Origin: Escherichia coli
GTDB taxonomy: Bacteria; Pseudomonadota; Gammaproteobacteria; Enterobacterales; Enterobacteriaceae
Assembly (NCBI GenBank): GCA_005397905.1
Contig: GCA_005397905.1_4318.1
Direction: 5' to 3' (one strand)
DNA: 14,769 nucleotides
The position numbers and the translations under genes were made by a program. This document shows, one piece after another, positions 194 through 13,697 of the stretch. Below the pieces are notes generated by a model. It made no database searches and was not told where the DNA came from. It saw only the letters and a list, made by a program, of their open reading frames with translations. Every line of letters starts with the position of its first letter. Within the stretch, counting starts at the first letter, position 1.

Positions 194-206
194 TTCATCA
201 CCTCAA

Positions 207-249
207 TAGCATTTTTTGTTAAAAGTCATTCCGATTTGATGGTAGTATT
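207..249 (+). promoter_or_regulatory. TAGCAC-type promoter-like element, variant TAGCAT-N3-TTGTTA, -10-like TAGTAT
   Basis: TAGCAT 207-212, TTGTTA 216-221, -10-like hexamer 243-248; upstream of the helicase ATG at 295. Its -10 overlaps the -10 of the divergent leftward promoter. Confidence 0.4.
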
Positions 250-3202: not shown

Positions 3203-3399
3203 TTACTGCTACATGTGTAAAAACGAACGGCTCGTTCACTTTATTTAATGAGTATGAATTCAAGATAGACCCGATAAATGACCAGGTTGAAATAGTTAGC
3301 GATGACGGATTTGCATGGAAGTTACATAATGAATTTGATGGTTACTACGGGTGTAATGATTCGAAAGGCAAGCATGTAAGTTTTCTTGTTTATGAGTAA
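3199..3399 (+). CDS. hypothetical protein (66 aa)
   Basis: ATG at 3199 overlaps the upstream stop (ATGA) with GGAGG 8 nt upstream; the track start at 3181 is TTG. Stop TAA directly precedes a TAGCAC element. Confidence 0.5.
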   Translation: MITATCVKTNGSFTLFNEYEFKIDPINDQVEIVSDDGFAWKLHNEFDGYYGCNDSKGKHVSFLVYE

Positions 3400-3400
3400 A

Positions 3401-3443
3401 TAGCACTTTTTGTTAAAACTCCAATCCATGGATTGATTATATT
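3401..3443 (+). promoter_or_regulatory. TAGCAC-type promoter-like element
   Basis: TAGCAC 3401-3406, TTGTTA 3410-3415, 22-bp spacer holding a perfect 12-bp palindrome AATCCATGGATT (3423-3434), TATATT 3438-3443. Confidence 0.55.
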
Positions 3444-4176: not shown

Positions 4177-5313
4177 ATGGCAACTGCAAAGATTACCAAC
4201 GAACAACTTCGTGAAGAACTGGCAAATGGCATGACAAACAAAGAAATCGCAGAGAAATACGGAATGAACATTCGCAATGTTGAATTGCGTCGTAGTAAAT
4301 TGGCAAAATCCGGCGAGCTTCATGGAAACCCTGGGATTAAGAAGCTAGTTCCTGACGGCTATTTGGTCAAAGGGACTTCAACGATGATTGATGCGGAAGG
4401 TAACGAGAAGATCCGGTGGGTTAAGACCTCAATTGATAATGAGCGCCTTGAGGTTCTTATGGAGCAGGCTCGAGAAGCATTTTGCTCTGAGTTGCCAAAG
4501 GCAGTTCCATCTGAATCACCTAATGTTAACTTTGACGATAACACGCTTGCGATGTATCCGGTTTTTGATTTACACATTGGAGCAATGGCACACAAACATG
4601 AGTGCGGCGAAAACTACGACACAGCGACAGCCGAGAAGGTAATGAATGGATTCTTTGATTACGCCGTAGATAAGGCCCCAAACTCAAAGAATGCTGTATT
4701 GGTATTGGGTGGCGATTTCCTACATTACGATTCCCTGGAGGCTAAAACCCCGGCCTCAGGCCATATCTTAGACTCTGACAGTCGTTACGCTAAGATTGTT
4801 TATGTTGCAATCCGTTCAGTACGACGTGCAATTTCTCGAATGATGGAAAAGCATCAAGTCATTGATATTAAAGTAATAAGCGGAAATCACGACGAGGCTG
4901 GAATGGTTTGGCTCCGCGCTGCACTTGCTGCATTTTATGAATATGAGCCTCGCGTAAATGTTGATGTTAGCCCAGCTGCAATGATGATGACCAGCTTTGG
5001 AACGACGCTTATTGGATACACTCACGGGCACCAAATGCGGAAAGCCGATACTCGACTAACTGTTATGGCAACTGATTTTCGTAAGTTATTTGGTCAAAGT
5101 GAGTATGTTTACACACATAGTGGCCACTGGCATTCGCAGAAGATTACAGAAACAAACTTGGGAATTGATGAGGTTCATGGGCAGCTGGGAAGTCCTGATG
5201 CGTACTCCGCAAATGGCGGCTGGCGCTCTCAACGTCAAGCGGCAGTTATTGTCTACCATAAAGAATTCGGTGAAGTTGGGCGATTCATTTGTCGCCCTAA
5301 AATGTTTAGCTAA
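4177..5313 (+). CDS. N-terminal helix-turn-helix domain fused to a calcineurin-like metallophosphoesterase (Mre11/SbcD-type fold)
   Basis: 378 aa. HTH-like MTNKEIAEKYGMNIRNVELRRSKL at the N-terminus; phosphoesterase motifs in order: DLH (VFDLHIGAMAH), GDxxxxD (VLGGDFLHYD), GNHDE, THGH, GHWH. AAGGA RBS upstream. Confidence 0.8.
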   Translation: MATAKITNEQLREELANGMTNKEIAEKYGMNIRNVELRRSKLAKSGELHGNPGIKKLVPDGYLVKGTSTMIDAEGNEKIRWVKTSIDNERLEVLMEQAREAFCSELPKAVPSESPNVNFDDNTLAMYPVFDLHIGAMAHKHECGENYDTATAEKVMNGFFDYAVDKAPNSKNAVLVLGGDFLHYDSLEAKTPASGHILDSDSRYAKIVYVAIRSVRRAISRMMEKHQVIDIKVISGNHDEAGMVWLRAALAAFYEYEPRVNVDVSPAAMMMTSFGTTLIGYTHGHQMRKADTRLTVMATDFRKLFGQSEYVYTHSGHWHSQKITETNLGIDEVHGQLGSPDAYSANGGWRSQRQAAVIVYHKEFGEVGRFICRPKMFS

Positions 5314-5356
5314 TAGCGCTTTTTGTTAAAAAACCCCCAGGTTACTGGGGTATAAT
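5314..5356 (+). promoter_or_regulatory. TAGCAC-type promoter-like element (variant TAGCGC)
   Basis: TAGCGC 5314-5319 directly after the stop TAA 5311-5313; TTGTTA 5323-5328; hairpin CCCCAG-GTTA-CTGGGG (5335-5350) in the spacer; TATAAT 5351-5356. Confidence 0.55.
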
Positions 5357-5425: not shown

Positions 5426-5980
5426 ATGACCAAATTGTTTATACTGAATGGGCCAGCTGGGGTCGGCAAAGATACAATTGCTGACGTCATGGTTAGTTCT
5501 GGCGCTTGCTGTGAGAAGGTTTCTTTTAAGTCACCCGTGTTTGATGTGGCTAAGGGTATGTTATCAAGCGATGAATTTGATTGGTTTATTGAAAACTACA
5601 ACAATAGAGACGAGAAAGATAAACCTCAGAAAATTCTCGGAGGTAAAACTATTCGAGAGTTTATGATATGGATTAGCGAATCAGTAATGAAACCTGTTTT
5701 TGGTAATGATGTCTTCGGCAGGAGATTGGCTAGTTCACTTGGTGATGGTTGCTATATTTGTGCTGACGGTGGATTTGCTAGCGAGATTGAGCCACTGATC
5801 GACGCTGGTGTTAAGGTCACGTTAATCAGGTTGCATAGGGCAGGGTACACATTTTATGGCGATAGTCGCTCATATATTCACGGGGTGTGTGAAAGAGAGA
5901 TTGATGTTCATGTTGTTGATGGTGATATTAATGGAACATCAGCATTGGTAAGGCACGTAATAAATAGCACGAATTGCTAA
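5426..5980 (+). CDS. deoxynucleoside monophosphate kinase-like P-loop kinase
   Basis: 184 aa; Walker A LNGPAGVGKDT; the N-terminal stretch KLFILNGPAGVGKDTIADVMVS resembles the N-terminus of the T4 gene 1 dNMP kinase as I recall it. GGAGA RBS. Protein ends ...NSTNC with the stop TAA supplied by a TTGCTAA element. Confidence 0.65.
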   Translation: MTKLFILNGPAGVGKDTIADVMVSSGACCEKVSFKSPVFDVAKGMLSSDEFDWFIENYNNRDEKDKPQKILGGKTIREFMIWISESVMKPVFGNDVFGRRLASSLGDGCYICADGGFASEIEPLIDAGVKVTLIRLHRAGYTFYGDSRSYIHGVCEREIDVHVVDGDINGTSALVRHVINSTNC

Positions 5981-6007
5981 AGATAATAGTAAAAACTGGG
6001 TTATCAT
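5965..6007 (+). promoter_or_regulatory. TAGCAC-type promoter-like element
   Basis: TAGCAC 5965-5970 inside the 3' end of the kinase gene; TTGCTA 5974-5979 (its TAA is the kinase stop); 22-bp spacer; TATCAT 6002-6007; leader CATCGAAACGAG...AACGAGGA. Confidence 0.55.
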
Positions 6008-7421: not shown

Positions 7422-7438
7422 TGGAGGCTATATTTTTA
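7412..7438. terminator. bidirectional intrinsic terminator at the convergence point
   Basis: 7-bp stem AGCCTCC / GGAGGCT (7412-7418 / 7423-7429) with loop TAAT (holding the spanin stop codon); T-rich run after it on the plus strand (ATATTTTT) and a 5-6 T tract after it on the minus strand (rc of 7407-7411). Confidence 0.65.
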
Positions 7439-7771
7439 ACTAAATAACTCGTCGTCCGTCATTGTTCCTATATTCATCATCTCTTTTATGTACTTGCTTT
7501 CATACCCGTTAAGCGCCTCGAAGTTAAAACCGAATGGCCTCTTCAAACTCCCCTTGCTAACAAATTCACCGCACTTACCATCAATGTATCCCATGCTAAG
7601 CATCTTCGCGCAGAACTCCTTTGAAGCGGCGCTGCAAAACTCTCTATGCGATAAACCCGCTGCTTTGCTGAATCGCTGAGAGTCCTTATGTTGGTAGATG
7701 AATCGCGCCAAATGCTGGCGCGTAAAATAGCTATAGGATTCGCAGAATCGGTACAAGTCTAAAATAAACAT
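7436..7771 (-). CDS. hypothetical protein (111 aa)
   Basis: ATG 3 nt after the stop of the 527-aa gene (translational coupling); ends at the bidirectional terminator. Confidence 0.5.
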   Translation of the reverse strand: MFILDLYRFCESYSYFTRQHLARFIYQHKDSQRFSKAAGLSHREFCSAASKEFCAKMLSMGYIDGKCGEFVSKGSLKRPFGFNFEALNGYESKYIKEMMNIGTMTDDELFS

Positions 7772-7774
7772 TAA

Positions 7775-9358
7775 TTACCCCAGCAGTCGCGGATTAATGT
7801 AAACCTTATCACCAATCAGGCAGGTGTAGTTTTTCTCATCAAGCATCGGAAGTAAATGGTCTTTAATCTTAGCCATTACGCCAGCCTGACCCTCAAACGG
7901 CCTAACCTTGCGTGCTGATTCATATAGTGAACGAAGTCCTACAACGCCCTTACTGTTCTTTCCTTGCTTAATCAATATGTCAATTAACTTGTTCATCTCT
8001 GCATTATCGCCAGCGTGACCAGCCGAACTAGCAGCAGAAAGGTAAGTTTTACTTTGTTCGTAAAACATGATAATTGCCTCTTGCATTGTCTCTAGGTCAA
8101 TTTGCCTTGACTTCAATGGCCGCTCATTATTCTTGCATGACCAGTTTCTTATTGTATGAAGAATTGCCGCCATTCGAATAACTTGCTTATCCATCTTGCC
8201 AAGAGCGCCACGCAGCATAGAGTGAGAGTATTTACCTCCATCCGCAAGGTGCGGCTCCATATCCTGGCGTGCTAGATTAAGATATCGCATAGCTGATTCT
8301 GAAATAGATAAATTAACTTGTGTTTCGTTCATAATGTTGTGAATCATTCTAAAGTAATCAGCTTTCAATTCGCCATCAACCGGTTCGTATGTCGACTCAC
8401 CTTTTTCATTAATAAAAACGCGATTTCCAATCATGGGGCGCTCCCTAACCAGCCAGAATCGCTCAGATACACCTATACCACGAGCACCAGCCTCCATAAT
8501 TGCATTGATTGTTTCATCCTGAGCTATTACAGCTATTGCGCCAAGCGCGGTAAACATCAAGTTGTTGTCAGCATTGGCGCGAGATATTGATATATTTCCA
8601 GAATCCCACGCCTTAAGAACTAACTCACTGTTTGTTTTCTTGCTGCCATCTCCGTAGGTCATCCCAAGCAATGAGTTAATTGCCGTTGCTTCGTCTGATA
8701 TTACCGCAAAGTTACCCTGTCGACTGTTTATTCGAGCCAGACCTTCAGGTGTTGTATCAGATACCGGAAAGACAATATCACACAGCTTTTCTAACTTCTC
8801 TTCTAAATCCTCTTTCTCCTCAAACAATGACGCCATTTCGGATGGCGACTTCTCCTGCTTCATCTCTTTCGCCAGCGCTGATAGCTTGGCCATAATCTTT
8901 TTTCTTTCACGCTTTCGCTGGTCATTGATTCGCTCAACCTCGGCTACCATTGGAGCTATTGCGAGTGAGTTAATGGCTGACTTACCAGTCGATGGTGGCT
9001 GGCTGGTTACTACGTACAGTGAGGTTGGTTGCTGCGTTCCGTGATACTCAACAGTAAAACGCCCTAGCATGGCAGCGGAAATACACCCCAGGAAATGCAT
9101 GTATGCGGAAGACTCTGGGAACTGAACAGATCGAGCGATATTGGATGAGAGTTTGCCAACAACATCAATATCATTTCCGAGTGAGATTACGGGATACTTG
9201 TCATTTGCAGCATCAATCTCCACTGGTGCTTTCCAGAATGATTGAGACTGGCGATAGCCATTTGCATTAATGGCGACTCGCAGTGGTGGGAGGTTGTCTG
9301 CGGCAGCAATTGCCATAACCTGTTCAACAGATAGTTTATCTTCGTTGAAATCAAACAT
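7775..9358 (-). CDS. P-loop NTPase of unknown function (527 aa), RecA/DnaB-like Walker A
   Basis: Walker A-like VVTSQPPSTGKSAI (about residues 115-128), Walker B-like FAVISDE (about 217-223), a highly charged predicted helix between them; GGAGAG RBS. N-terminal 43 aa and C-terminal 55 aa are homologous to the 181-aa ORF at 12482-13027. Confidence 0.8.
   Translation of the reverse strand: MFDFNEDKLSVEQVMAIAAADNLPPLRVAINANGYRQSQSFWKAPVEIDAANDKYPVISLGNDIDVVGKLSSNIARSVQFPESSAYMHFLGCISAAMLGRFTVEYHGTQQPTSLYVVTSQPPSTGKSAINSLAIAPMVAEVERINDQRKRERKKIMAKLSALAKEMKQEKSPSEMASLFEEKEDLEEKLEKLCDIVFPVSDTTPEGLARINSRQGNFAVISDEATAINSLLGMTYGDGSKKTNSELVLKAWDSGNISISRANADNNLMFTALGAIAVIAQDETINAIMEAGARGIGVSERFWLVRERPMIGNRVFINEKGESTYEPVDGELKADYFRMIHNIMNETQVNLSISESAMRYLNLARQDMEPHLADGGKYSHSMLRGALGKMDKQVIRMAAILHTIRNWSCKNNERPLKSRQIDLETMQEAIIMFYEQSKTYLSAASSAGHAGDNAEMNKLIDILIKQGKNSKGVVGLRSLYESARKVRPFEGQAGVMAKIKDHLLPMLDEKNYTCLIGDKVYINPRLLG
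9233..9262. repeat. 30-nt perfect inverted repeat, copy A (inside the NTPase gene)
   Basis: rc of 9233-9262 = AATGGCTATCGCCAGTCTCAATCATTCTGG, identical to 12584-12613, while flanking synonymous sites have diverged. Confidence 0.9.
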
Positions 9359-9388
9359 TACTTCTCTCCGTATTGTTTTTGAGAGGCC

Positions 9389-9431
9389 ATTATATCAACG
9401 GCCTCTTATAAAGCATTATCAATTTGTGCTA
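9389..9431 (-). promoter_or_regulatory. TAGCAC-type promoter-like element
   Basis: Minus strand reads TAGCAC-AAA-TTGATA, 22 bp, TATAAT (plus 9431-9389); the -10 lies in the loop of dyad AGAGGCC / GGCCTCT (9382-9388 / 9400-9406). Confidence 0.55.
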
Positions 9432-9544
9432 TTAATTACTCTTAATCCACTTTATGCACATCCATGCTCCGGAAACATAGAGCGCTAGCTTTGCTAACTC
9501 AGCCGCTAAGTGTATAAATAAAGCAAAATCAGAAATAAGCTCAG

Positions 9545-9784
9545 TCATTTTTTAATCTCCATCTCCATAATTTCATAACTTATGTAATTATTTATCATTC
9601 CAATAAGTGATTTTGGGTATGTTTGCATATGATTCTTGGCTGAATCTTCATCAAGATGCGCTGATATGTTGTGAAAATTGTATTCATAATCCATGCCCAT
9701 TAGTATGTATATCTTATCGTGCGCCTTAATGAGGTTATTTGATTTTATTTCCCCAAGCGACCATCCTTTTCCTTTTCTAATCAT
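9545..9784 (-). CDS. hypothetical protein (79 aa)
   Basis: ATG overlaps the stop of the upstream minus-strand gene (ATGA). Confidence 0.5.
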   Translation of the reverse strand: MIRKGKGWSLGEIKSNNLIKAHDKIYILMGMDYEYNFHNISAHLDEDSAKNHMQTYPKSLIGMINNYISYEIMEMEIKK

Positions 9785-10134
9785 TTGTATTGAGCCTCAA
9801 AGCGATAGTCTCCGCAAACTGTAACAAATCCAACATCTTCGTCACGATATAGCTGCCATGCGCTTCCCTCTTTATCGTAAATGTATCCAGCACGCTGCCC
9901 AAGTCCAGCATGGAGATCTACTTGATATCGCTTCCCTTCGGTGAAGTATTTACGAATGGATGAGCGATGATTAACCTTTGTGCAGTAAATTGTCTTGGTC
10001 TTAATATACTTGCCGCGCTCTTCAAGGTTAATCCATTTCCCATCTTTCTTGATTTGTTCTACACCATCTTTAACGCGAGCTTTGTATAGTACGTTTTCGT
10101 TGCTAATCCAGTTTTTGGTAATCGTAGTAGTCAT
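9781..10134 (-). CDS. hypothetical protein (117 aa)
   Basis: Start chosen at the ATG giving MTTTITKNW... (plus 10134) because the track start 10179 lies inside the promoter -10; conserved leader CATCGAAACGAAACAACGAAGGG precedes it. Confidence 0.55.
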   Translation of the reverse strand: MTTTITKNWISNENVLYKARVKDGVEQIKKDGKWINLEERGKYIKTKTIYCTKVNHRSSIRKYFTEGKRYQVDLHAGLGQRAGYIYDKEGSAWQLYRDEDVGFVTVCGDYRFEAQYK

Positions 10135-10170
10135 TTCTTTTACCCTTCGTTGTTTCGTTTCGATGAGTTT

Positions 10171-10213
10171 AATATACATGAAAAGCCACGAAGGGTTTTA
10201 GCAATTAGTGCTA
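10171..10213 (-). promoter_or_regulatory. TAGCAC-type promoter-like element
   Basis: Minus strand TAGCAC-TAA-TTGCTA (plus 10213-10199), 22 bp, TATATT (plus 10176-10171). Confidence 0.55.
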
Positions 10214-10362
10214 TTTCGTGCTTTTTCTATGGCCTTGAGCATAATCTCATGACTCTCAAGCAAGTCATCGCGGAACCAATCACCGCAAGGCCAGCCTTTT
10301 CCGCTGTAGGTGCTGATTACCTCAAGATCGAAATAATTTATCTCAGATGGTAGAAGCATCAT
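10198..10362 (-). CDS. hypothetical small protein (54 aa)
   Basis: Minus-strand ATG at 10362 overlapping the upstream stop (ATGA), GAGGTG RBS; MMLLPSEINYFDLEVISTYSGKGWPCGDWFRDDLLESHEIMLKAIEKARNSTNC; ends in the same ...NSTNC-stop inside the TAGCAC element as the kinase gene. Confidence 0.45.
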   Translation of the reverse strand: MMLLPSEINYFDLEVISTYSGKGWPCGDWFRDDLLESHEIMLKAIEKARNSTNC

Positions 10363-10598
10363 TTCACCTCGTCAAAAGTTGCAATCCCAGGGATAAACAT
10401 TCCAACCTTCCAGCCTGCAATGGCAATCCATCCAGAATCGTGCTTATGCGGTCGCTCAGCGCCATTAATCAACCATTCGTTCGGGATTGTCTTGCCGTTA
10501 ATGATTAGCGGCTCAGCGTCGTATACAGAGCCTTTTACGAATGGTGTTAAAACTTTCTTGTCGGTGCTCGCAATAACGTTGGTGCAGCGAATTTTCAT
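10359..10598 (-). CDS. hypothetical protein (79 aa)
   Basis: ATG with GAGGA RBS; same strand as the flanking small genes. Confidence 0.5.
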   Translation of the reverse strand: MKIRCTNVIASTDKKVLTPFVKGSVYDAEPLIINGKTIPNEWLINGAERPHKHDSGWIAIAGWKVGMFIPGIATFDEVK

Positions 10599-10608
10599 AT
10601 CTCAATCC

Positions 10609-10788
10609 TCAAATAAATGGTAAACATTCATTACAGCCAAGTCCATCACAGCACATGAATTCATCATCTGACTGGAATTGCTTAGCCAAATCAATGTCCA
10701 ACTTTCCGCGCACCACAAGGTCGGTGTAATCTTCGTTCAGCCCAATCAGTGAGCATTCGTGGAGTAACTCATCTTTATCAATCTTCAT
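10609..10788 (-). CDS. hypothetical small Cys-rich protein (59 aa)
   Basis: Second in-frame ATG (MKIDKD...) preferred over track start 10794 on AAGGGG spacing; C-terminal CCDGLGCNEC cluster suggests metal binding. Confidence 0.45.
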   Translation of the reverse strand: MKIDKDELLHECSLIGLNEDYTDLVVRGKLDIDLAKQFQSDDEFMCCDGLGCNECLPFI

Positions 10789-10816
10789 ATCCATCCCCTT
10801 GTTGTTAGTGAGTTAA

Positions 10817-10859
10817 CTGTAGCCTCGCCAGCAACAGATGTCTTTAGCAAAAAGTGCTA
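10817..10859 (-). promoter_or_regulatory. TAGCAC-type promoter-like element (weak -10)
   Basis: Minus strand TAGCAC-TTT-TTGCTA (plus 10859-10845); the -10 at the expected distance is only TACAGT/CTACAG-like. Confidence 0.4.
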
Positions 10860-10861
10860 CT

Positions 10862-11053
10862 TCAGAAATTGATGTTCTCGACAACATGAACCATCTGATA
10901 ACCAAGGCGATAACTGTCACCGAGGATTAATCGACCCATAAACTGATCGTTTGTGAAGCTCTCCTTACCCATAGTGCGAAGCGTTCCGTTATGGATGATG
11001 GTGTCACCAATCTTTACGTCATTCTTATGCGTCAAAACAATATTATTGCTCAT
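10862..11053 (-). CDS. hypothetical protein (63 aa)
   Basis: ATG (MSNNIV...) with GAGGTG 6 nt upstream; the track start 11062 is GTG. Stop TGA lies 2 nt before a TAGCAC element. Confidence 0.5.
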   Translation of the reverse strand: MSNNIVLTHKNDVKIGDTIIHNGTLRTMGKESFTNDQFMGRLILGDSYRLGYQMVHVVENINF

Positions 11054-11067
11054 TATCAACACCTCTA

Positions 11068-11250
11068 TTACATGTGTTTCAGGTAGAAAGCGATTTCTTT
11101 AATGTTGTCTTCTGGATGAGCCTTCACGACTACCGCTAACATCTTCTCAACCAGAGTCTTGCTGCTCTCAGGGTTATAACCTTCCTGAACCAGTAGGGCG
11201 ATAGTGTTTTCGACGGTGACTGGTGAGTTTTTGTTGATGCGCTTAGCCAT
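11068..11250 (-). CDS. hypothetical protein (60 aa)
   Basis: First gene of the leftward operon; AAGGA RBS; leader CATCGAAACGACACGCACTAAAGGAAACC. Confidence 0.5.
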   Translation of the reverse strand: MAKRINKNSPVTVENTIALLVQEGYNPESSKTLVEKMLAVVVKAHPEDNIKEIAFYLKHM

Positions 11251-11287
11251 GATGGTTTCCTTTAGTGCGTGTCGTTTCGATGAGGTA

Positions 11288-11331
11288 ATAATAGCAAATC
11301 ACAGTCTTTTGATTATTAGCAAAAAGTGCTA
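11288..11331 (-). promoter_or_regulatory. TAGCAC-type promoter-like element
   Basis: Minus strand TAGCAC-TTT-TTGCTA (plus 11331-11317), 23 bp, TATTAT (plus 11293-11288). Confidence 0.5.
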
Positions 11332-11357
11332 TTCGTTAGATTTATGTATTGTTGCAG

Positions 11358-11418
11358 ATATTGCAATGATTCACATGACTATTGCACATATAGCAATATT
11401 GCTTCCGATGCAATGATG
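11358..11418. promoter_or_regulatory. cluster of ATTGCAAT-type palindromic operator-like sites
   Basis: ATATTGCAATGAT (11358-11370), ATTGCACATATAGCAAT (11381-11397) and GATGCAATGATG (11407-11418) share TTGCA / TGCAAT half-sites. Confidence 0.35.
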
Positions 11419-11419
11419 T

Positions 11420-11502
11420 TTTTGATTGTTGCGAAAAGTGAAATGAAGTGGTGATTGAGTGAATGAAGGATTGATGGACTACCATACAAGTTGATTTTGA
11501 TT
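11420..11502. repeat. direct-repeat array with GATTG core (five copies) plus TGAA(A)TGAAG repeats
   Basis: TTGATT/GATTGA at 11422, 11453, 11469, 11491 and 11497; TGAAATGAAG (11439-11448) and TGAATGAAGG (11460-11469). Confidence 0.4.
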
Positions 11503-11645
11503 CTGGCTGAGCCATTTTGAGCATACGCGTTATAAAAGTTATGCCGTGTGGATGCGCCAGCTCCCCGCGGGAATCATGTACGCCTATCACGCTAAATTAC
11601 GCAATGGTTACATAATAATATCTATATATATCAACCATTTAGTAA

Positions 11646-11666
11646 TATTATTATTATTATTATTAT
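11646..11666. repeat. (TAT)7 trinucleotide microsatellite in an AT-rich tract
   Basis: Seven uninterrupted TAT units at 11646-11666, flanked by (TA)n and further AT-rich sequence. Confidence 0.8.
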
Positions 11667-11726
11667 ATACGTGTATATAATGTAGATAGTGGATATTGGA
11701 TATTGCGATAGTTTTCTATGATTTTT

Positions 11727-11762
11727 TCCTACACTTGTAGGAATGGTACTACACTGTAGGAA
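11727..11762. promoter_or_regulatory. two adjacent palindromic operator-like sites sharing a TGTAGGA half-site
   Basis: TCCTACA-CT-TGTAGGA (11727-11742) and CTACA-C-TGTAGG (11749-11760), centres about 21 bp apart. Confidence 0.4.
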
Positions 11763-11891
11763 TAAATAGGCATATATGGGCCAATCCACCATAAAAACTG
11801 ATGTACAAGCTGTACACGGTTTTACATTGAGCTATATCTGGGGTTGTGAGCTGAAAAGCGTAAATAAATTGAATTAAACCATGAATAACAC

Positions 11892-11920
11892 TTGATAACA
11901 TGTAACCGCGATGATATTAT
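11892..11920 (+). promoter_or_regulatory. canonical sigma70 promoter with extended -10 (TTGATA-17-TGaTATTAT)
   Basis: -35 TTGATA 11892-11897, 17-bp spacer, TG at 11912-11913, -10 TATTAT 11915-11920; about 40 nt upstream of the ATG at 11961 (CAGGAG RBS). Confidence 0.65.
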
Positions 11921-11960
11921 GCACCCATCTTAACGAAGGAAACCAATCAGGAGTATATCT

Positions 11961-12482
11961 ATGTCAAATCGCATTCAACCAGTAAGCCTTGGTGATGTTA
12001 TCCGCTACATGGCTAAGCAGGCGCTTAAGGCCGACAATCGGACTTTCCATGTTCCAATCCACCTGATAGCTCGCCAGGTTTACGGGCTAACGTCTGATGA
12101 TATTGGTCGAATCAGCGCTGAGGATCTCGAGAGTGGCGGCAAATACAGTTTGGCAAAGTTGAAGGCTTCATATGTCTCTAACACAGTTGCCAGGATGCCA
12201 GAGATTCAGGAGGCGAACGTTCGGGCTAAGCTGTCAATCAAGGACGGAGACTTTGGGGATGATGTTGATGTTCGATGCGCATACATCACCTTGGTCGATG
12301 GGGCAATACAGACAGGAAAGAGAGTGATGGCCAACAACCAGGTAGCCGATAAGGCTGTAAGCGACTTTAAGGCTAGAATCCTCAAGCTGATGCCATCAGT
12401 GACTGAGTTTGAAGGTGATGAGATTACCGGAGCCATCAAAGCAATTAAGATGTACCAGGAAATGATTAAGGAGGCAAAATAA
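11961..12482 (+). CDS. hypothetical protein (173 aa), first gene behind the canonical promoter
   Basis: ATG with CAGGAG RBS; no recognisable motif. Confidence 0.65.
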   Translation: MSNRIQPVSLGDVIRYMAKQALKADNRTFHVPIHLIARQVYGLTSDDIGRISAEDLESGGKYSLAKLKASYVSNTVARMPEIQEANVRAKLSIKDGDFGDDVDVRCAYITLVDGAIQTGKRVMANNQVADKAVSDFKARILKLMPSVTEFEGDEITGAIKAIKMYQEMIKEAK

Positions 12483-13027
12483 TGGGGATGTTTGATTTTA
12501 ACGAAGATAAGCTAACTAATGATGAGATTATGAAGATTGCCATGCGGGATGGACTTCCTCCGCTACGGGTTGCAATCAACGCTAATGGCTATCGCCAGTC
12601 TCAATCATTCTGGTGTAGTGTTGAGGAGTTGCTCAGCGCAAAGCTCAACAGCAAGTCTGGCGTAGTTATGTGTAAGATTCACGGACAGAGCAGGAATGGC
12701 AAGGGGGTTGTCGGAATTCGATCAACATATGAAGCGCTGAGAAAGGTCAAGCCATTCGCCGGACTCAACGGAGTCATGCATGACCTGAAAAATAACATCC
12801 TGCCATCGTTACAGGACGCAGGAATCATCTGCTTAATCGGGGATAAGATTTACGTGCATCCATACATCGTTGGCATGCATGCGATAGAAGTTGAAGAGTG
12901 GTGCGACACCTGGGCTGTTGATGAGCATGCTAGTAGACTACCATACCACTTACGGTACGACGAAGATGAGGTAGAGAAGGCGATTGAGTTCTACCGGAAA
13001 GCTAAATCACTCCTGACCGGTAAATAG
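12482..13027 (+). CDS. hypothetical protein (181 aa), truncated paralog of the 527-aa NTPase lacking the P-loop core
   Basis: MFDFNEDKL...LPPLRVAINANGYRQSQSFW matches the NTPase N-terminus (20 consecutive residues identical); KGVVGIRSTYEALRKVKPF...CLIGDKIYVHP is about 55% identical to the NTPase C-terminus; no Walker motifs. AAGGAGG RBS; stop TAG is part of a TAGCAC element. Confidence 0.75.
   Translation: MGMFDFNEDKLTNDEIMKIAMRDGLPPLRVAINANGYRQSQSFWCSVEELLSAKLNSKSGVVMCKIHGQSRNGKGVVGIRSTYEALRKVKPFAGLNGVMHDLKNNILPSLQDAGIICLIGDKIYVHPYIVGMHAIEVEEWCDTWAVDEHASRLPYHLRYDEDEVEKAIEFYRKAKSLLTGK
12584..12613. repeat. 30-nt perfect inverted repeat, copy B (inside the paralog gene)
   Basis: AATGGCTATCGCCAGTCTCAATCATTCTGG at 12584-12613, in inverted orientation relative to 9233-9262. 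Confidence 0.9.
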
Positions 13028-13067
13028 CACTAATTGCTAAACAATAAATCGGGTAGTCAGCTATGAT
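13025..13067 (+). promoter_or_regulatory. TAGCAC-type promoter-like element
   Basis: TAGCAC 13025-13030 (TAG is the stop of the paralog gene), TTGCTA 13034-13039, 22 bp, TATGAT 13062-13067. Confidence 0.5.
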
Positions 13068-13523: not shown

Positions 13524-13657
13524 TTTACATCCACACTTACTACACTGGCAAGTTCAATAGCGTTAAGCACGTTCGGGTTCACGATACCTACGATAGCGCA
13601 AAGGCTCAGTGGTTGGTTCTTGGCGGCGATATTAATTCATATAGAATCGCTGAGTAG
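13520..13657 (+). CDS. hypothetical small protein (45 aa)
   Basis: ATG overlapping the upstream stop (ATGA); MIYIHTYYTGKFNSVKHVRVHDTYDSAKAQWLVLGGDINSYRIAE; stop TAG is the TAG of a TAGCAC element. Confidence 0.4.
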   Translation: MIYIHTYYTGKFNSVKHVRVHDTYDSAKAQWLVLGGDINSYRIAE

Positions 13658-13697
13658 CACGAATTGTTAAAACAGCATTGGGGTAATTTGTTATAAT
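13655..13697 (+). promoter_or_regulatory. TAGCAC-type promoter-like element
   Basis: TAGCAC 13655-13660, TTGTTA 13664-13669, 22 bp, TATAAT 13692-13697 within dyad TGGGGTAAT/ATTGCCCCA; leader CATCGAAACTAACGAGGAAG. Confidence 0.55.

What the first reader, a model, noticed from the sequence alone, without database searches (positions are those of the whole stretch)
9233..12613. 30-nt perfect inverted repeat inside the paralog pair, amid diverged synonymous sites
The codons for NGYRQSQSFW are nucleotide-identical over 30 nt in both genes (rc of 9233-9262 equals 12584-12613), whereas the ten codons just upstream encode identical amino acids with different third positions. That points to recent gene conversion or selection on the nucleotide sequence itself. 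Because the copies are inverted and 3.3 kb apart, recombination between them would flip the segment carrying the small-gene cluster and the control region.
Basis: seen in the sequence. Interest (0 to 1): 0.5.

Follow-up and report, generated by a model that had tools for sequence, protein, structure and literature searches.

The report
Gene-conversion patch between phage helicase paralogs
The 30-base perfect inverted repeat is real, but it is an old, short copy-and-paste event between a T1-like phage's helicase gene and a shortened relative of that gene, not a conserved signal or a DNA-flipping switch, so it is ordinary.

Summary
The reverse complement of 9233-9262 equals 12584-12613. The match is exactly 30 nt, and the ten codons upstream all differ at third positions.

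The window comes from a T1-like phage (Drexlerviridae, Braunvirinae). One arm lies in codons 33-42 of the DUF3987 helicase gene. The other lies in a 181-aa paralog that keeps the helicase N- and C-terminal modules but lacks the ATPase core.

The identity exceeds chance (run permutation p about 1e-4; codon-usage expectation about 5e-5 to 8e-5).

In 17 related genomes with both genes, the paralogs differ at 1-15 of these 30 positions. Among 50,697 phage records, no record has two copies.

In the short gene, the 30-mer matches the helicase-type sequence (0-3 differences) and is 9-12 differences from short copies outside its clade. The flanking codons group with other short copies. This fits a 24-36 nt helicase-to-paralog gene conversion, inherited by a small clade (window, FP, JulesPiccard, one IMG/VR contig, possibly Msk).

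Synonymous variation here is normal, which argues against nucleotide-level selection. No inversion isomer appears among 808 related records, and no invertase gene was found. Rare homologous inversion within a phage population remains untested. Interest is low.

The parts
9233..9262 (-). Left arm of the 30-nt perfect inverted repeat; codons 33-42 (NGYRQSQSFW) of the helicase gene. Inferred donor-type sequence.
   Evidence: The same 30-mer sits in the helicase gene of 54 deposited phage records.
12584..12613 (+). Right arm; codons 35-44 of the short paralog counted from the ATG at 12482 (33-42 from MFDF). Inferred recipient of the conversion.
   Evidence: It is 0-3 nt from Braunvirinae helicase 30-mers but 9-12 nt from short copies outside its clade.
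7775..9358 (-). DUF3987 putative replicative helicase gene, 527 aa.
   Evidence: Pfam PF13148, E = 4.5e-41; PHROG 2373 'DNA helicase', E = 1e-247.
12482..13027 (+). Short paralog, 181 aa. It consists of the helicase N-terminal module, the helicase C-terminal winged-helix-like module and a unique tail, with no ATPase core. Its ATG overlaps the upstream stop codon (TAATG).
   Evidence: BLASTP against the helicase: residues 1-51 are 69% identical and residues 433-527 are 40% identical. PHROG 7327, unknown function. AF2 model pLDDT 83.
9233..9358 (-). 126-nt N-terminal homology block, helicase side. It is 74.6% identical to 12488-12613.
   Evidence: (I1, I2).
12488..12613 (+). 126-nt N-terminal homology block, short-paralog side.
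12554..12583 (+). Ten codons (LPPLRVAINA) upstream of the arm. All differ from the helicase at third positions and carry the short-copy-specific synonymous signature (CTA CGG GTT GCA ATC).
9263..12583 (.). 3321-nt segment between the arms. It holds both N-terminal coding stubs, the helicase promoter-like site, nine small leftward ORFs, a roughly 700-nt AT-rich non-coding region and the DUF7174 gene.
11961..12482 (+). DUF7174 gene, always directly upstream of the short paralog and translationally coupled to it.
   Evidence: Pfam PF23796, E = 2e-50. The same order is seen in every annotated relative fetched.
7778..7966 (-). C-terminal homology block, helicase codons 465-527. It is 57.7% nt identical to 12686-12874, with no long identical run.
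12686..12874 (+). C-terminal homology block of the short paralog (residues 67-129 from MFDF).

Best explanation
The repeat is the footprint of a short, non-reciprocal transfer (ectopic gene conversion or template switch) between two old, divergently oriented paralogs. About 24-36 nt of the helicase gene, from codon 31-35 to the end of the N-terminal homology at W42, overwrote the matching stretch of the short paralog. This happened in the common ancestor of a small clade: this phage, FP, JulesPiccard, IMG/VR contig 3300000290_000010 and probably Msk. Afterwards the two copies drifted apart by 1-7 substitutions in the sister phages. Only in this phage are they still, or again, identical over 30 nt.

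Shown: the patch is non-random; it groups with helicase sequences while its flanks group with short-paralog sequences; and the state is shared by descent.

Inferred: the molecular route, plausibly the RecE/RecT-like recombination genes that relatives carry, or host RecA, acting on replicating concatemers. Also inferred: the patch has no function of its own.
For: - Non-randomness: run permutation p = 1e-4, Fisher p = 1e-5; codon-usage chance 5e-5 to 8e-5.
- Incongruence: in codons 23-32 the window's short copy is 0-9 nt from other short copies and 6-11 (mostly 9-10) from helicases. In codons 33-42 it is 0-3 nt from Braunvirinae helicases and 9-12 from short copies outside its clade.
- Polarity: the exact 30-mer is the common helicase allele. 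It occurs in 54 records, including phages whose short copy encodes QTQGFW or HVQHLW at this position. It occurs in a short paralog only in FP.
- Age: FP's short copy is 30/30 identical to the window's, JulesPiccard's 29/30 and contig c290's 27/30. These short proteins are 81-93% identical to the window's, against 65% or less for all others.
- Elsewhere the paralogs are about 58-75% nt identical, and no other genome's pair has an identical run longer than 20 nt.
- Machinery: the relative JulesPiccard is annotated with exodeoxyribonuclease VIII, a recombination protein and an SSB.
Against: - All statistics are post hoc, on a feature chosen because it looked odd.
- The synonymous-only run test is modest (p = 0.012).
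- The tract is very short and ends exactly where homology ends, so there is little flanking identity for classical double-strand-break repair.
- Only five genomes define the clade, so tract limits (24, 30 or 36 nt) and the number of events (one, or one plus a later GGA to GGC change) cannot be resolved.
- No recombination event was observed directly.
Confidence: 0.8

Rival explanations
1. Coincidence. The two genes are constrained to encode the same ten amino acids and happen to use the same codons, helped by the many two-fold-degenerate codons in this stretch.
For: Five of the ten codons are two-fold degenerate and one is Trp, so the stretch has fewer synonymous sites than the ten codons upstream (per-class variability). 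The synonymous-only run test gives only p = 0.012. The feature was picked post hoc.
Against: The codon-usage probability of identity is 5e-5 to 8e-5, and most of the codons used are not the preferred ones. The P817 helicase encodes the same peptide with 10 nt differences. Coincidence does not explain why the whole clade's short copies are helicase-like here while their flanks are short-copy-like.
Confidence: 0.09
2. A functional nucleotide element. The 30-mer would be a cis-acting DNA or RNA site, for example a shared target of a regulator or small RNA or a structured RNA, kept identical in both genes by selection.
For: Both mRNAs carry the 30-mer in the sense orientation, so one trans-acting factor could in principle see both (this follows from the sequence itself). 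The helicase allele is identical in many Braunvirinae.
Against: Synonymous variability of helicase codons 33-42 is 0.92 of the degeneracy-class expectation, rank 156 of 518. Paralogs differ at 1-15 of the 30 positions in all 17 relatives. Short copies outside the clade even change the amino acids. There is no Rfam match. The predicted fold is only a 4-bp hairpin at -4.9 kcal/mol. 43 of the 55 records carrying the 30-mer are near-identical isolates from one host strain.
Confidence: 0.03
3. A recombination substrate with biological use. The inverted arms would let the 3.3-kb early-control segment flip, by a site-specific invertase or by RecET/RecA, swapping the promoters and N-termini of the helicase and its paralog.
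For: The geometry is right. The arms are inverted, in frame and 3321 nt apart, so a crossover preserves both ORFs (one search shows the chimera translating cleanly). 30 bp just exceeds the 23-27 bp minimal processing segment quoted for RecA/RecBC (PMC12074656). Relatives encode RecE/RecT-like proteins.
Against: The perfect repeat occurs in this genome only. The inversion-junction query hit 808 records with none contiguous over 80% or more; every top-ranked place shown (25 rows) begins at the normal helicase ATG. In every genome with both genes, the helicase body carries the helicase-type N-terminus and DUF7174 precedes the short paralog. No recombinase domain appears in the window's ORFs or in JulesPiccard's annotation. 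The 30-mer has no dyad symmetry, 4 of 30 positions.
Confidence: 0.04

Closest known systems
Interparalog (ectopic) gene conversion between inverted duplicate genes, e.g. tufA/tufB of Salmonella and E. coli (from my own knowledge, not checked in the paper library)
   Same: Two paralogs lie in inverted orientation in one genome. There is non-reciprocal transfer of sequence, a patch of identity against diverged flanks, and in principle the same repeats can mediate inversion.
   Different: Here the tract is only 24-36 nt, in paralogs that are otherwise 58-75% identical. It appears to reflect one old event rather than continuing homogenisation of near-identical kilobase genes. The recipient is a domain-deleted derivative of the donor.
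Programmed invertible segments of phages (Mu G segment with Gin, P1 C segment with Cin; about 3-kb segments flanked by short inverted repeats inside tail-fibre genes) (from my own knowledge)
   Same: Short inverted repeats of about 30 bp lie inside coding sequence, about 3 kb apart, so that inversion would fuse alternative gene parts in frame.
   Different: There is no invertase gene, no dyad-symmetric crossover site and no conservation of the repeat. No second orientation was found in 808 related genomes. The two 'alternative' N-termini encode nearly the same peptide.
Templated (template-switch or quasipalindrome) mutagenesis, in which an imperfect inverted repeat is corrected to a perfect one (from my own knowledge)
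   Same: A short tract in one arm of an inverted repeat is rewritten from the other arm, producing clustered changes and perfect complementarity.
   Different: Classical cases involve arms tens of nucleotides apart that can form a hairpin. Here the arms are 3.3 kb apart, so an inter-strand or inter-molecule switch would be needed. This was not tested.
PHROG 2373 (DNA helicase, DUF3987) and PHROG 7327 (unknown function) of Drexlerviridae
   Same: The two genes are clear members: E = 1e-247 and 3e-74. The divergent arrangement with DUF7174 is conserved in Braunvirinae, Rogunavirinae and Nouzillyvirus.
   Different: None as to membership. The 30-nt perfect identity between the two genes is particular to this genome.

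Membership tests
Interparalog gene-conversion tract | Two homologous sequences in the same genome | tested here: met
   The helicase and the short paralog share N-terminal (69% aa) and C-terminal (40% aa) blocks. The pair is present in about 109 phage records.
Interparalog gene-conversion tract | Identity patch longer than expected from the divergence of the flanks | tested here: met
   Run of 20 matching polymorphic sites, p = 1.05e-4; Fisher p = 1.1e-5. Codon-usage probability 5e-5 to 8e-5. Other genomes' pairs have runs of 20 nt or less.
Interparalog gene-conversion tract | Phylogenetic incongruence: the patch groups with the other paralog while the flanks group with orthologs | tested here: met
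   Codons 33-42 are 0-3 nt from Braunvirinae helicases and 9-12 from non-clade short copies. Codons 23-32 are closer to short copies (0-9) than to helicases (6-11).
Interparalog gene-conversion tract | Identifiable donor and recipient | tested here: met
   The 30-mer is the widespread helicase allele (54 records). It is found in a short paralog only in FP and the window.
Interparalog gene-conversion tract | Homologous-recombination machinery available | tested here: inconclusive
   RecE-like exonuclease, a recombination protein and an SSB are annotated in the relative JulesPiccard outside the region covered by the window. The window itself shows only a 'DNA repair exonuclease' PHROG 704 hit. 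Activity was not tested.
Programmed DNA-inversion switch (Gin/Hin/Cin-type or shufflon) | Inverted repeats flanking the segment, placed so that inversion keeps reading frames | tested here: met
   The chimeric junction translates in frame.
Programmed DNA-inversion switch (Gin/Hin/Cin-type or shufflon) | Site-specific recombinase encoded by the element or genome | tested here: not met
   No recombinase domain in the window's ORFs of 111 aa or more that were scanned; the window's other ORFs, all under 120 aa, were not scanned. No integrase, invertase or resolvase among the 90 annotated features of JulesPiccard.
Programmed DNA-inversion switch (Gin/Hin/Cin-type or shufflon) | Crossover repeats conserved in related genomes | tested here: not met
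   1-15 differences between the arms in 17 relatives. No record has two copies of the 30-mer.
Programmed DNA-inversion switch (Gin/Hin/Cin-type or shufflon) | Both orientations found in nature | tested here: not met
   The inversion-junction query found 0 of 808 records with a contiguous match. Within-population isomers are not testable with these tools.
Programmed DNA-inversion switch (Gin/Hin/Cin-type or shufflon) | Dyad-symmetric recombinase binding site | tested here: not met
   4 of 30 positions are self-complementary about the centre.
Conserved cis-acting element embedded in coding sequence | Depressed synonymous variation relative to the rest of the gene | tested here: not met
   Ratio 0.92, rank 156 of 518 ten-codon windows across 21 distinct helicase genes.
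Conserved cis-acting element embedded in coding sequence | Match to a described RNA family or a stable structure | tested here: not met
   No Rfam hit at gathering score. The minimum-free-energy fold is a 4-bp hairpin at -4.9 kcal/mol.

The most novel reading that the evidence does not exclude
In this one phage, the chance restoration of 30 bp of perfect inverted identity might allow host RecA or the phage's RecE/RecT-like system to invert the 3.3-kb early-control segment at low frequency during replication. That would create a subpopulation in which the helicase body is expressed behind DUF7174 with the paralog's N-terminus, and the reverse for the short paralog. This would be a recombinase-independent form of structural heterogeneity in a virulent phage. 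The comparative data exclude fixed isomers but not rare ones.
Probability: 0.04. Interest if true: 0.55.

Novelty: new member of a known kind. Interest (0 to 1): 0.15.

Why it matters
It matters little. The case shows that even in small virulent T1-like phages, an essential replication gene and its ATPase-less derivative exchange very short sequence patches. It also shows that a striking perfect repeat inside paralogs can be an evolutionary footprint rather than a signal.

On the practical side, the repeat is a possible, weak site for rearrangement or mis-assembly in this genome. More usefully, the work draws attention to the conserved pair of helicase and N+C-domain paralog (PHROG 2373 and 7327, with DUF7174), whose function is unknown.

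Tried and rejected
- Rfam scan of the window: no hits.
- PDB sequence searches for both proteins: no hits.
- Foldseek of the AF2 model of the short paralog against PDB: nothing at E <= 0.001. The weak matches are to winged-helix proteins (MukE, JetB, Cdc6/Orc, MarR), so the fold is only suggestive.
- Metagenome scan with a degenerate short-paralog-specific junction pattern: 0 hits.
- Exact 30-mer scans of metagenomes and IMG/VR: only single-copy helicase hits.
- Exact-protein look-ups of the window's short paralog and of the predicted inversion chimera (helicase N-terminus plus short body): neither is on record, so this was uninformative.
- Search for a donor of the odd 7-substitution patch in Msk's short copy elsewhere in the Msk genome: none found.
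- Test for conversion in the C-terminal homology block: no genome has a run longer than 20 nt.
- Literature searches for Drexlerviridae with DUF3987, and for phage paralog conversion or inversion: nothing on this gene pair.
- Codon bias as an explanation: rejected.
- Programmed inversion: rejected on four defining features.
Full report
**Observation.** On the minus strand, 9262..9233 reads AATGGCTATCGCCAGTCTCAATCATTCTGG. The plus strand at 12584..12613 reads the same. The match is maximal at 30 nt because the neighbouring bases differ on both sides, and 3321 nt separate the arms. The repeat finder reports it as the core of a 60-nt, 83% inverted repeat (I1), next to a second 53-nt, 79% one (I2). 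There is no third copy in the window at up to 3 mismatches. Both arms encode NGYRQSQSFW. The ten codons before them (LPPLRVAINA) differ at the third position in all ten cases.

**What the genes are.** The window is 77-85% identical to T1-like coliphages of the Drexlerviridae. The closest are Msk and JulesPiccard (Braunvirinae).
- The left arm lies in a 527-aa DUF3987 protein, annotated 'putative helicase' (Pfam E = 4.5e-41, PHROG 2373).
- The right arm lies in a 181-aa protein of PHROG 7327, function unknown.
- The short protein matches helicase residues 1-51 (69% identity) and 433-527 (40%). It lacks the ATPase core and adds a unique tail of about 50 residues.
- An AF2 model (pLDDT 83) shows a small helical N-module followed by an H-beta-H-H-beta-beta unit. 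Its only structural neighbours, all weak, are winged-helix proteins.
- The short gene is translationally coupled to an upstream DUF7174 gene.
- The layout is helicase (leftward), small ORFs (leftward), an AT-rich non-coding stretch, DUF7174 (rightward), then the short paralog (rightward). It is conserved in Braunvirinae, Rogunavirinae and Nouzillyvirus. About 109 of 817 matching phage records hold a full-length short paralog.

**Is it more than chance?** Yes.
- Within the 126-nt N-terminal homology block the two genes differ at 32 positions, none of them in the last 30 nt.
- Using only the sites that vary in an alignment of 39 helicase and short-copy sequences, the run of 20 matching sites has permutation p = 1.05e-4.
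- A run test on synonymous codons alone gives p = 0.012. Fisher's test of 10/10 against 0/9 gives p = 1.1e-5.
- With the window's own codon usage, two independent choices would coincide at all ten codons with probability 5e-5 to 8e-5. Five of the nine degenerate codons are not the preferred ones.
- Part of the contrast with the upstream codons is trivial. Those codons are nearly all four- or six-fold degenerate, whereas half of the 30-mer's codons are two-fold.
- All of these tests are post hoc.

**Relatives.** I compared both genes in 17 further genomes.
- Differences between a genome's own two copies in these 30 positions: FP 1, JulesPiccard 3, IMG/VR contig 3300000290_000010 3, Msk 7 (with an in-frame TAA), and 9-15 in all others.
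- In those others the short copy also changes the amino acids, for example QSFNFW, HVQHLW, QTQGFW, QSTAFW.
- No other pair has an identical run longer than 20 nt, in either homology block.
- The exact 30-mer occurs in 55 of 50,697 phage records, always once per record: 54 times in the helicase gene and once (FP) in the short paralog. 43 of these records are near-identical isolates from one host strain.
- IMG/VR (4 contigs) and metagenomes (2 contigs) also hold single copies only.
- The perfect inverted repeat is therefore particular to this genome.

**What produced it.** The window's short copy was compared segment by segment with every other sequence.
- In codons 23-32 it is 0-9 nt from other short copies and 6-11 (mostly 9-10) from helicases. 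Short copies share a synonymous signature of their own, CTA CGR GTT GCA ATC.
- In codons 33-42 the pattern reverses: 0-3 nt from Braunvirinae helicases and 9-12 from short copies outside its clade.
- This incongruence is the signature of a non-reciprocal transfer from a helicase gene into the short paralog.
- The 30-mer is the common helicase allele even in phages with quite different short copies, so the helicase was the donor.
- FP's short copy is 30/30 identical to the window's, JulesPiccard's 29/30 and c290's 27/30. These proteins are 81-93% identical to the window's, against 65% or less for all others. The event therefore predates the split of this small clade and is not recent in this phage.
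- The tract runs from somewhere between codon 31 and codon 35 to W42, where homology between the genes ends. That makes it 24-36 nt.
- JulesPiccard and c290 have GGA at codon 34, while the window and FP have GGC. A later point change, or a second event, completed the 30-nt identity.
- The molecular route is inferred, not shown. Relatives are annotated with an exodeoxyribonuclease VIII, a recombination protein and an SSB.

**Selection on the nucleotide sequence.** This is not supported.
- Across 21 distinct helicase genes, synonymous variability of codons 33-42 is 0.92 of what their degeneracy classes predict. That ranks 156th of 518 ten-codon windows.
- The P817 helicase encodes the same decapeptide with 10 nucleotide differences.
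- There is no Rfam match.
- The 30-mer folds only into a 4-bp hairpin and has no dyad symmetry.

**Inversion.** It would exchange the first 32 residues and the upstream operons of the two genes.
- I built that junction (DUF7174 3' end, short N-terminus, then helicase body) and searched the phage collection. 808 records matched, none contiguously over 80% or more, and every top-ranked place shown (25 rows) starts at the normal helicase ATG.
- In every genome examined, the helicase body carries the helicase-type N-terminus and DUF7174 precedes the short paralog.
- No invertase, integrase or resolvase is present in the window or annotated in JulesPiccard.
- 30 bp is only just above the 23-27 bp minimal processing segment quoted for RecA/RecBC (PMC12074656). 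Rare homologous inversion within a population of this phage cannot be excluded, and it cannot be tested without reads.
- The segment contains the AT-rich non-coding region where the record of relative SU57 ends. The SU57 paper places the terminal repeat there and, by analogy with T1, the pac region (PMC7718038).

**Comparison with known systems.**
- The feature behaves like ectopic gene conversion between inverted paralogs. The textbook case is tufA/tufB (my own knowledge). It meets the tested criteria for such a tract.
- It resembles Mu G or P1 C invertible segments (short inverted repeats in coding sequence about 3 kb apart). However, it fails four defining features of that family.
- It is a new instance of a well-known process, of low general interest.
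- The gene pair itself, a helicase plus its N+C-domain derivative and DUF7174, is the more interesting open question. It is already catalogued as PHROG families of unknown function.

**Dead ends.**
- A degenerate metagenome pattern found nothing.
- Exact-protein look-ups of the short paralog and of a predicted chimera were not on record.
- PDB sequence searches were empty.
- Literature searches found nothing on this pair.
- No donor was found for Msk's aberrant patch.

Noticed in passing
window 204-227, 2705-2724, 3398-3417, 5311-5334, 5962-5981, 13022-13041, 13652-13671 (+); 9415-9434, 10197-10216, 10843-10862, 11315-11334 (-): A family of intergenic promoter-like sites, all pointing in the direction of the downstream genes. 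The pattern is AATAGCAC-N3/4-TTGCTAAA (a -35 of TTGCTA or TTGTTA), then about 17 nt, a TATAAT-like hexamer, and often CATCGAAAC. There are 8 matches at up to 3 mismatches against 0.01 expected. One copy sits directly upstream of the helicase gene.
   Followed up: partly
window 11260-11960: A roughly 700-nt AT-rich non-coding region between the divergent gene blocks, with an (ATT)n run near 11640-11665 and several short direct repeats (TGCAATGAT...). The SU57 record ends inside the equivalent region. Its authors place the terminal repeat there and, by analogy with T1, the pac region (PMC7718038).
   Followed up: partly
window 7799-7846 (-), helicase codons 505-520: This is the lowest synonymous variability in the whole helicase gene across 21 relatives (ratio 0.38-0.5 of expectation). 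It lies just upstream of the next gene (7436-7771). It may be an embedded signal for the downstream gene.
   Followed up: no
L003 6366-6395 (Msk; same as L035 37966-37995): Msk's short paralog carries 7 substitutions clustered in 13 nt inside the 30-mer, including an in-frame TAA (CGG TAA TCA CAG AGA). No donor copy exists elsewhere in the Msk genome. The record is flagged UNVERIFIED, so this is either a pseudogene or a sequence error.
   Followed up: partly
window 12572-12583 (short-paralog codons 29-32): GCA ATC AAT GCT is almost invariant at the nucleotide level among 17 distinct short paralogs (synonymous variability 0.12-0.34). The helicase varies freely at three of the same four codons (A29, I30, A32: 0.39-0.77). 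This is a paralog-specific synonymous signature of unknown meaning.
   Followed up: partly
L008 7001-7423, L012 (DTL), L006 7001-7535: The short paralog varies in length. 140-aa forms lacking the C-terminal tail occur in 12397II-type phages and DTL, and the gene is split into two ORFs in IME542. Sf12's copy (L027) has a C-terminal domain 71% identical to its own helicase, against 52% in the window.
   Followed up: no
window 12482-13027: The AF2 model of the short paralog (pLDDT 83) shows four short helices (residues 11-50), a winged-helix-like unit (55-123) and a terminal helix (159-177). There is no significant PDB neighbour. The weak matches are MukE, JetB, Cdc6/Orc and MarR winged-helix domains.
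   Followed up: partly
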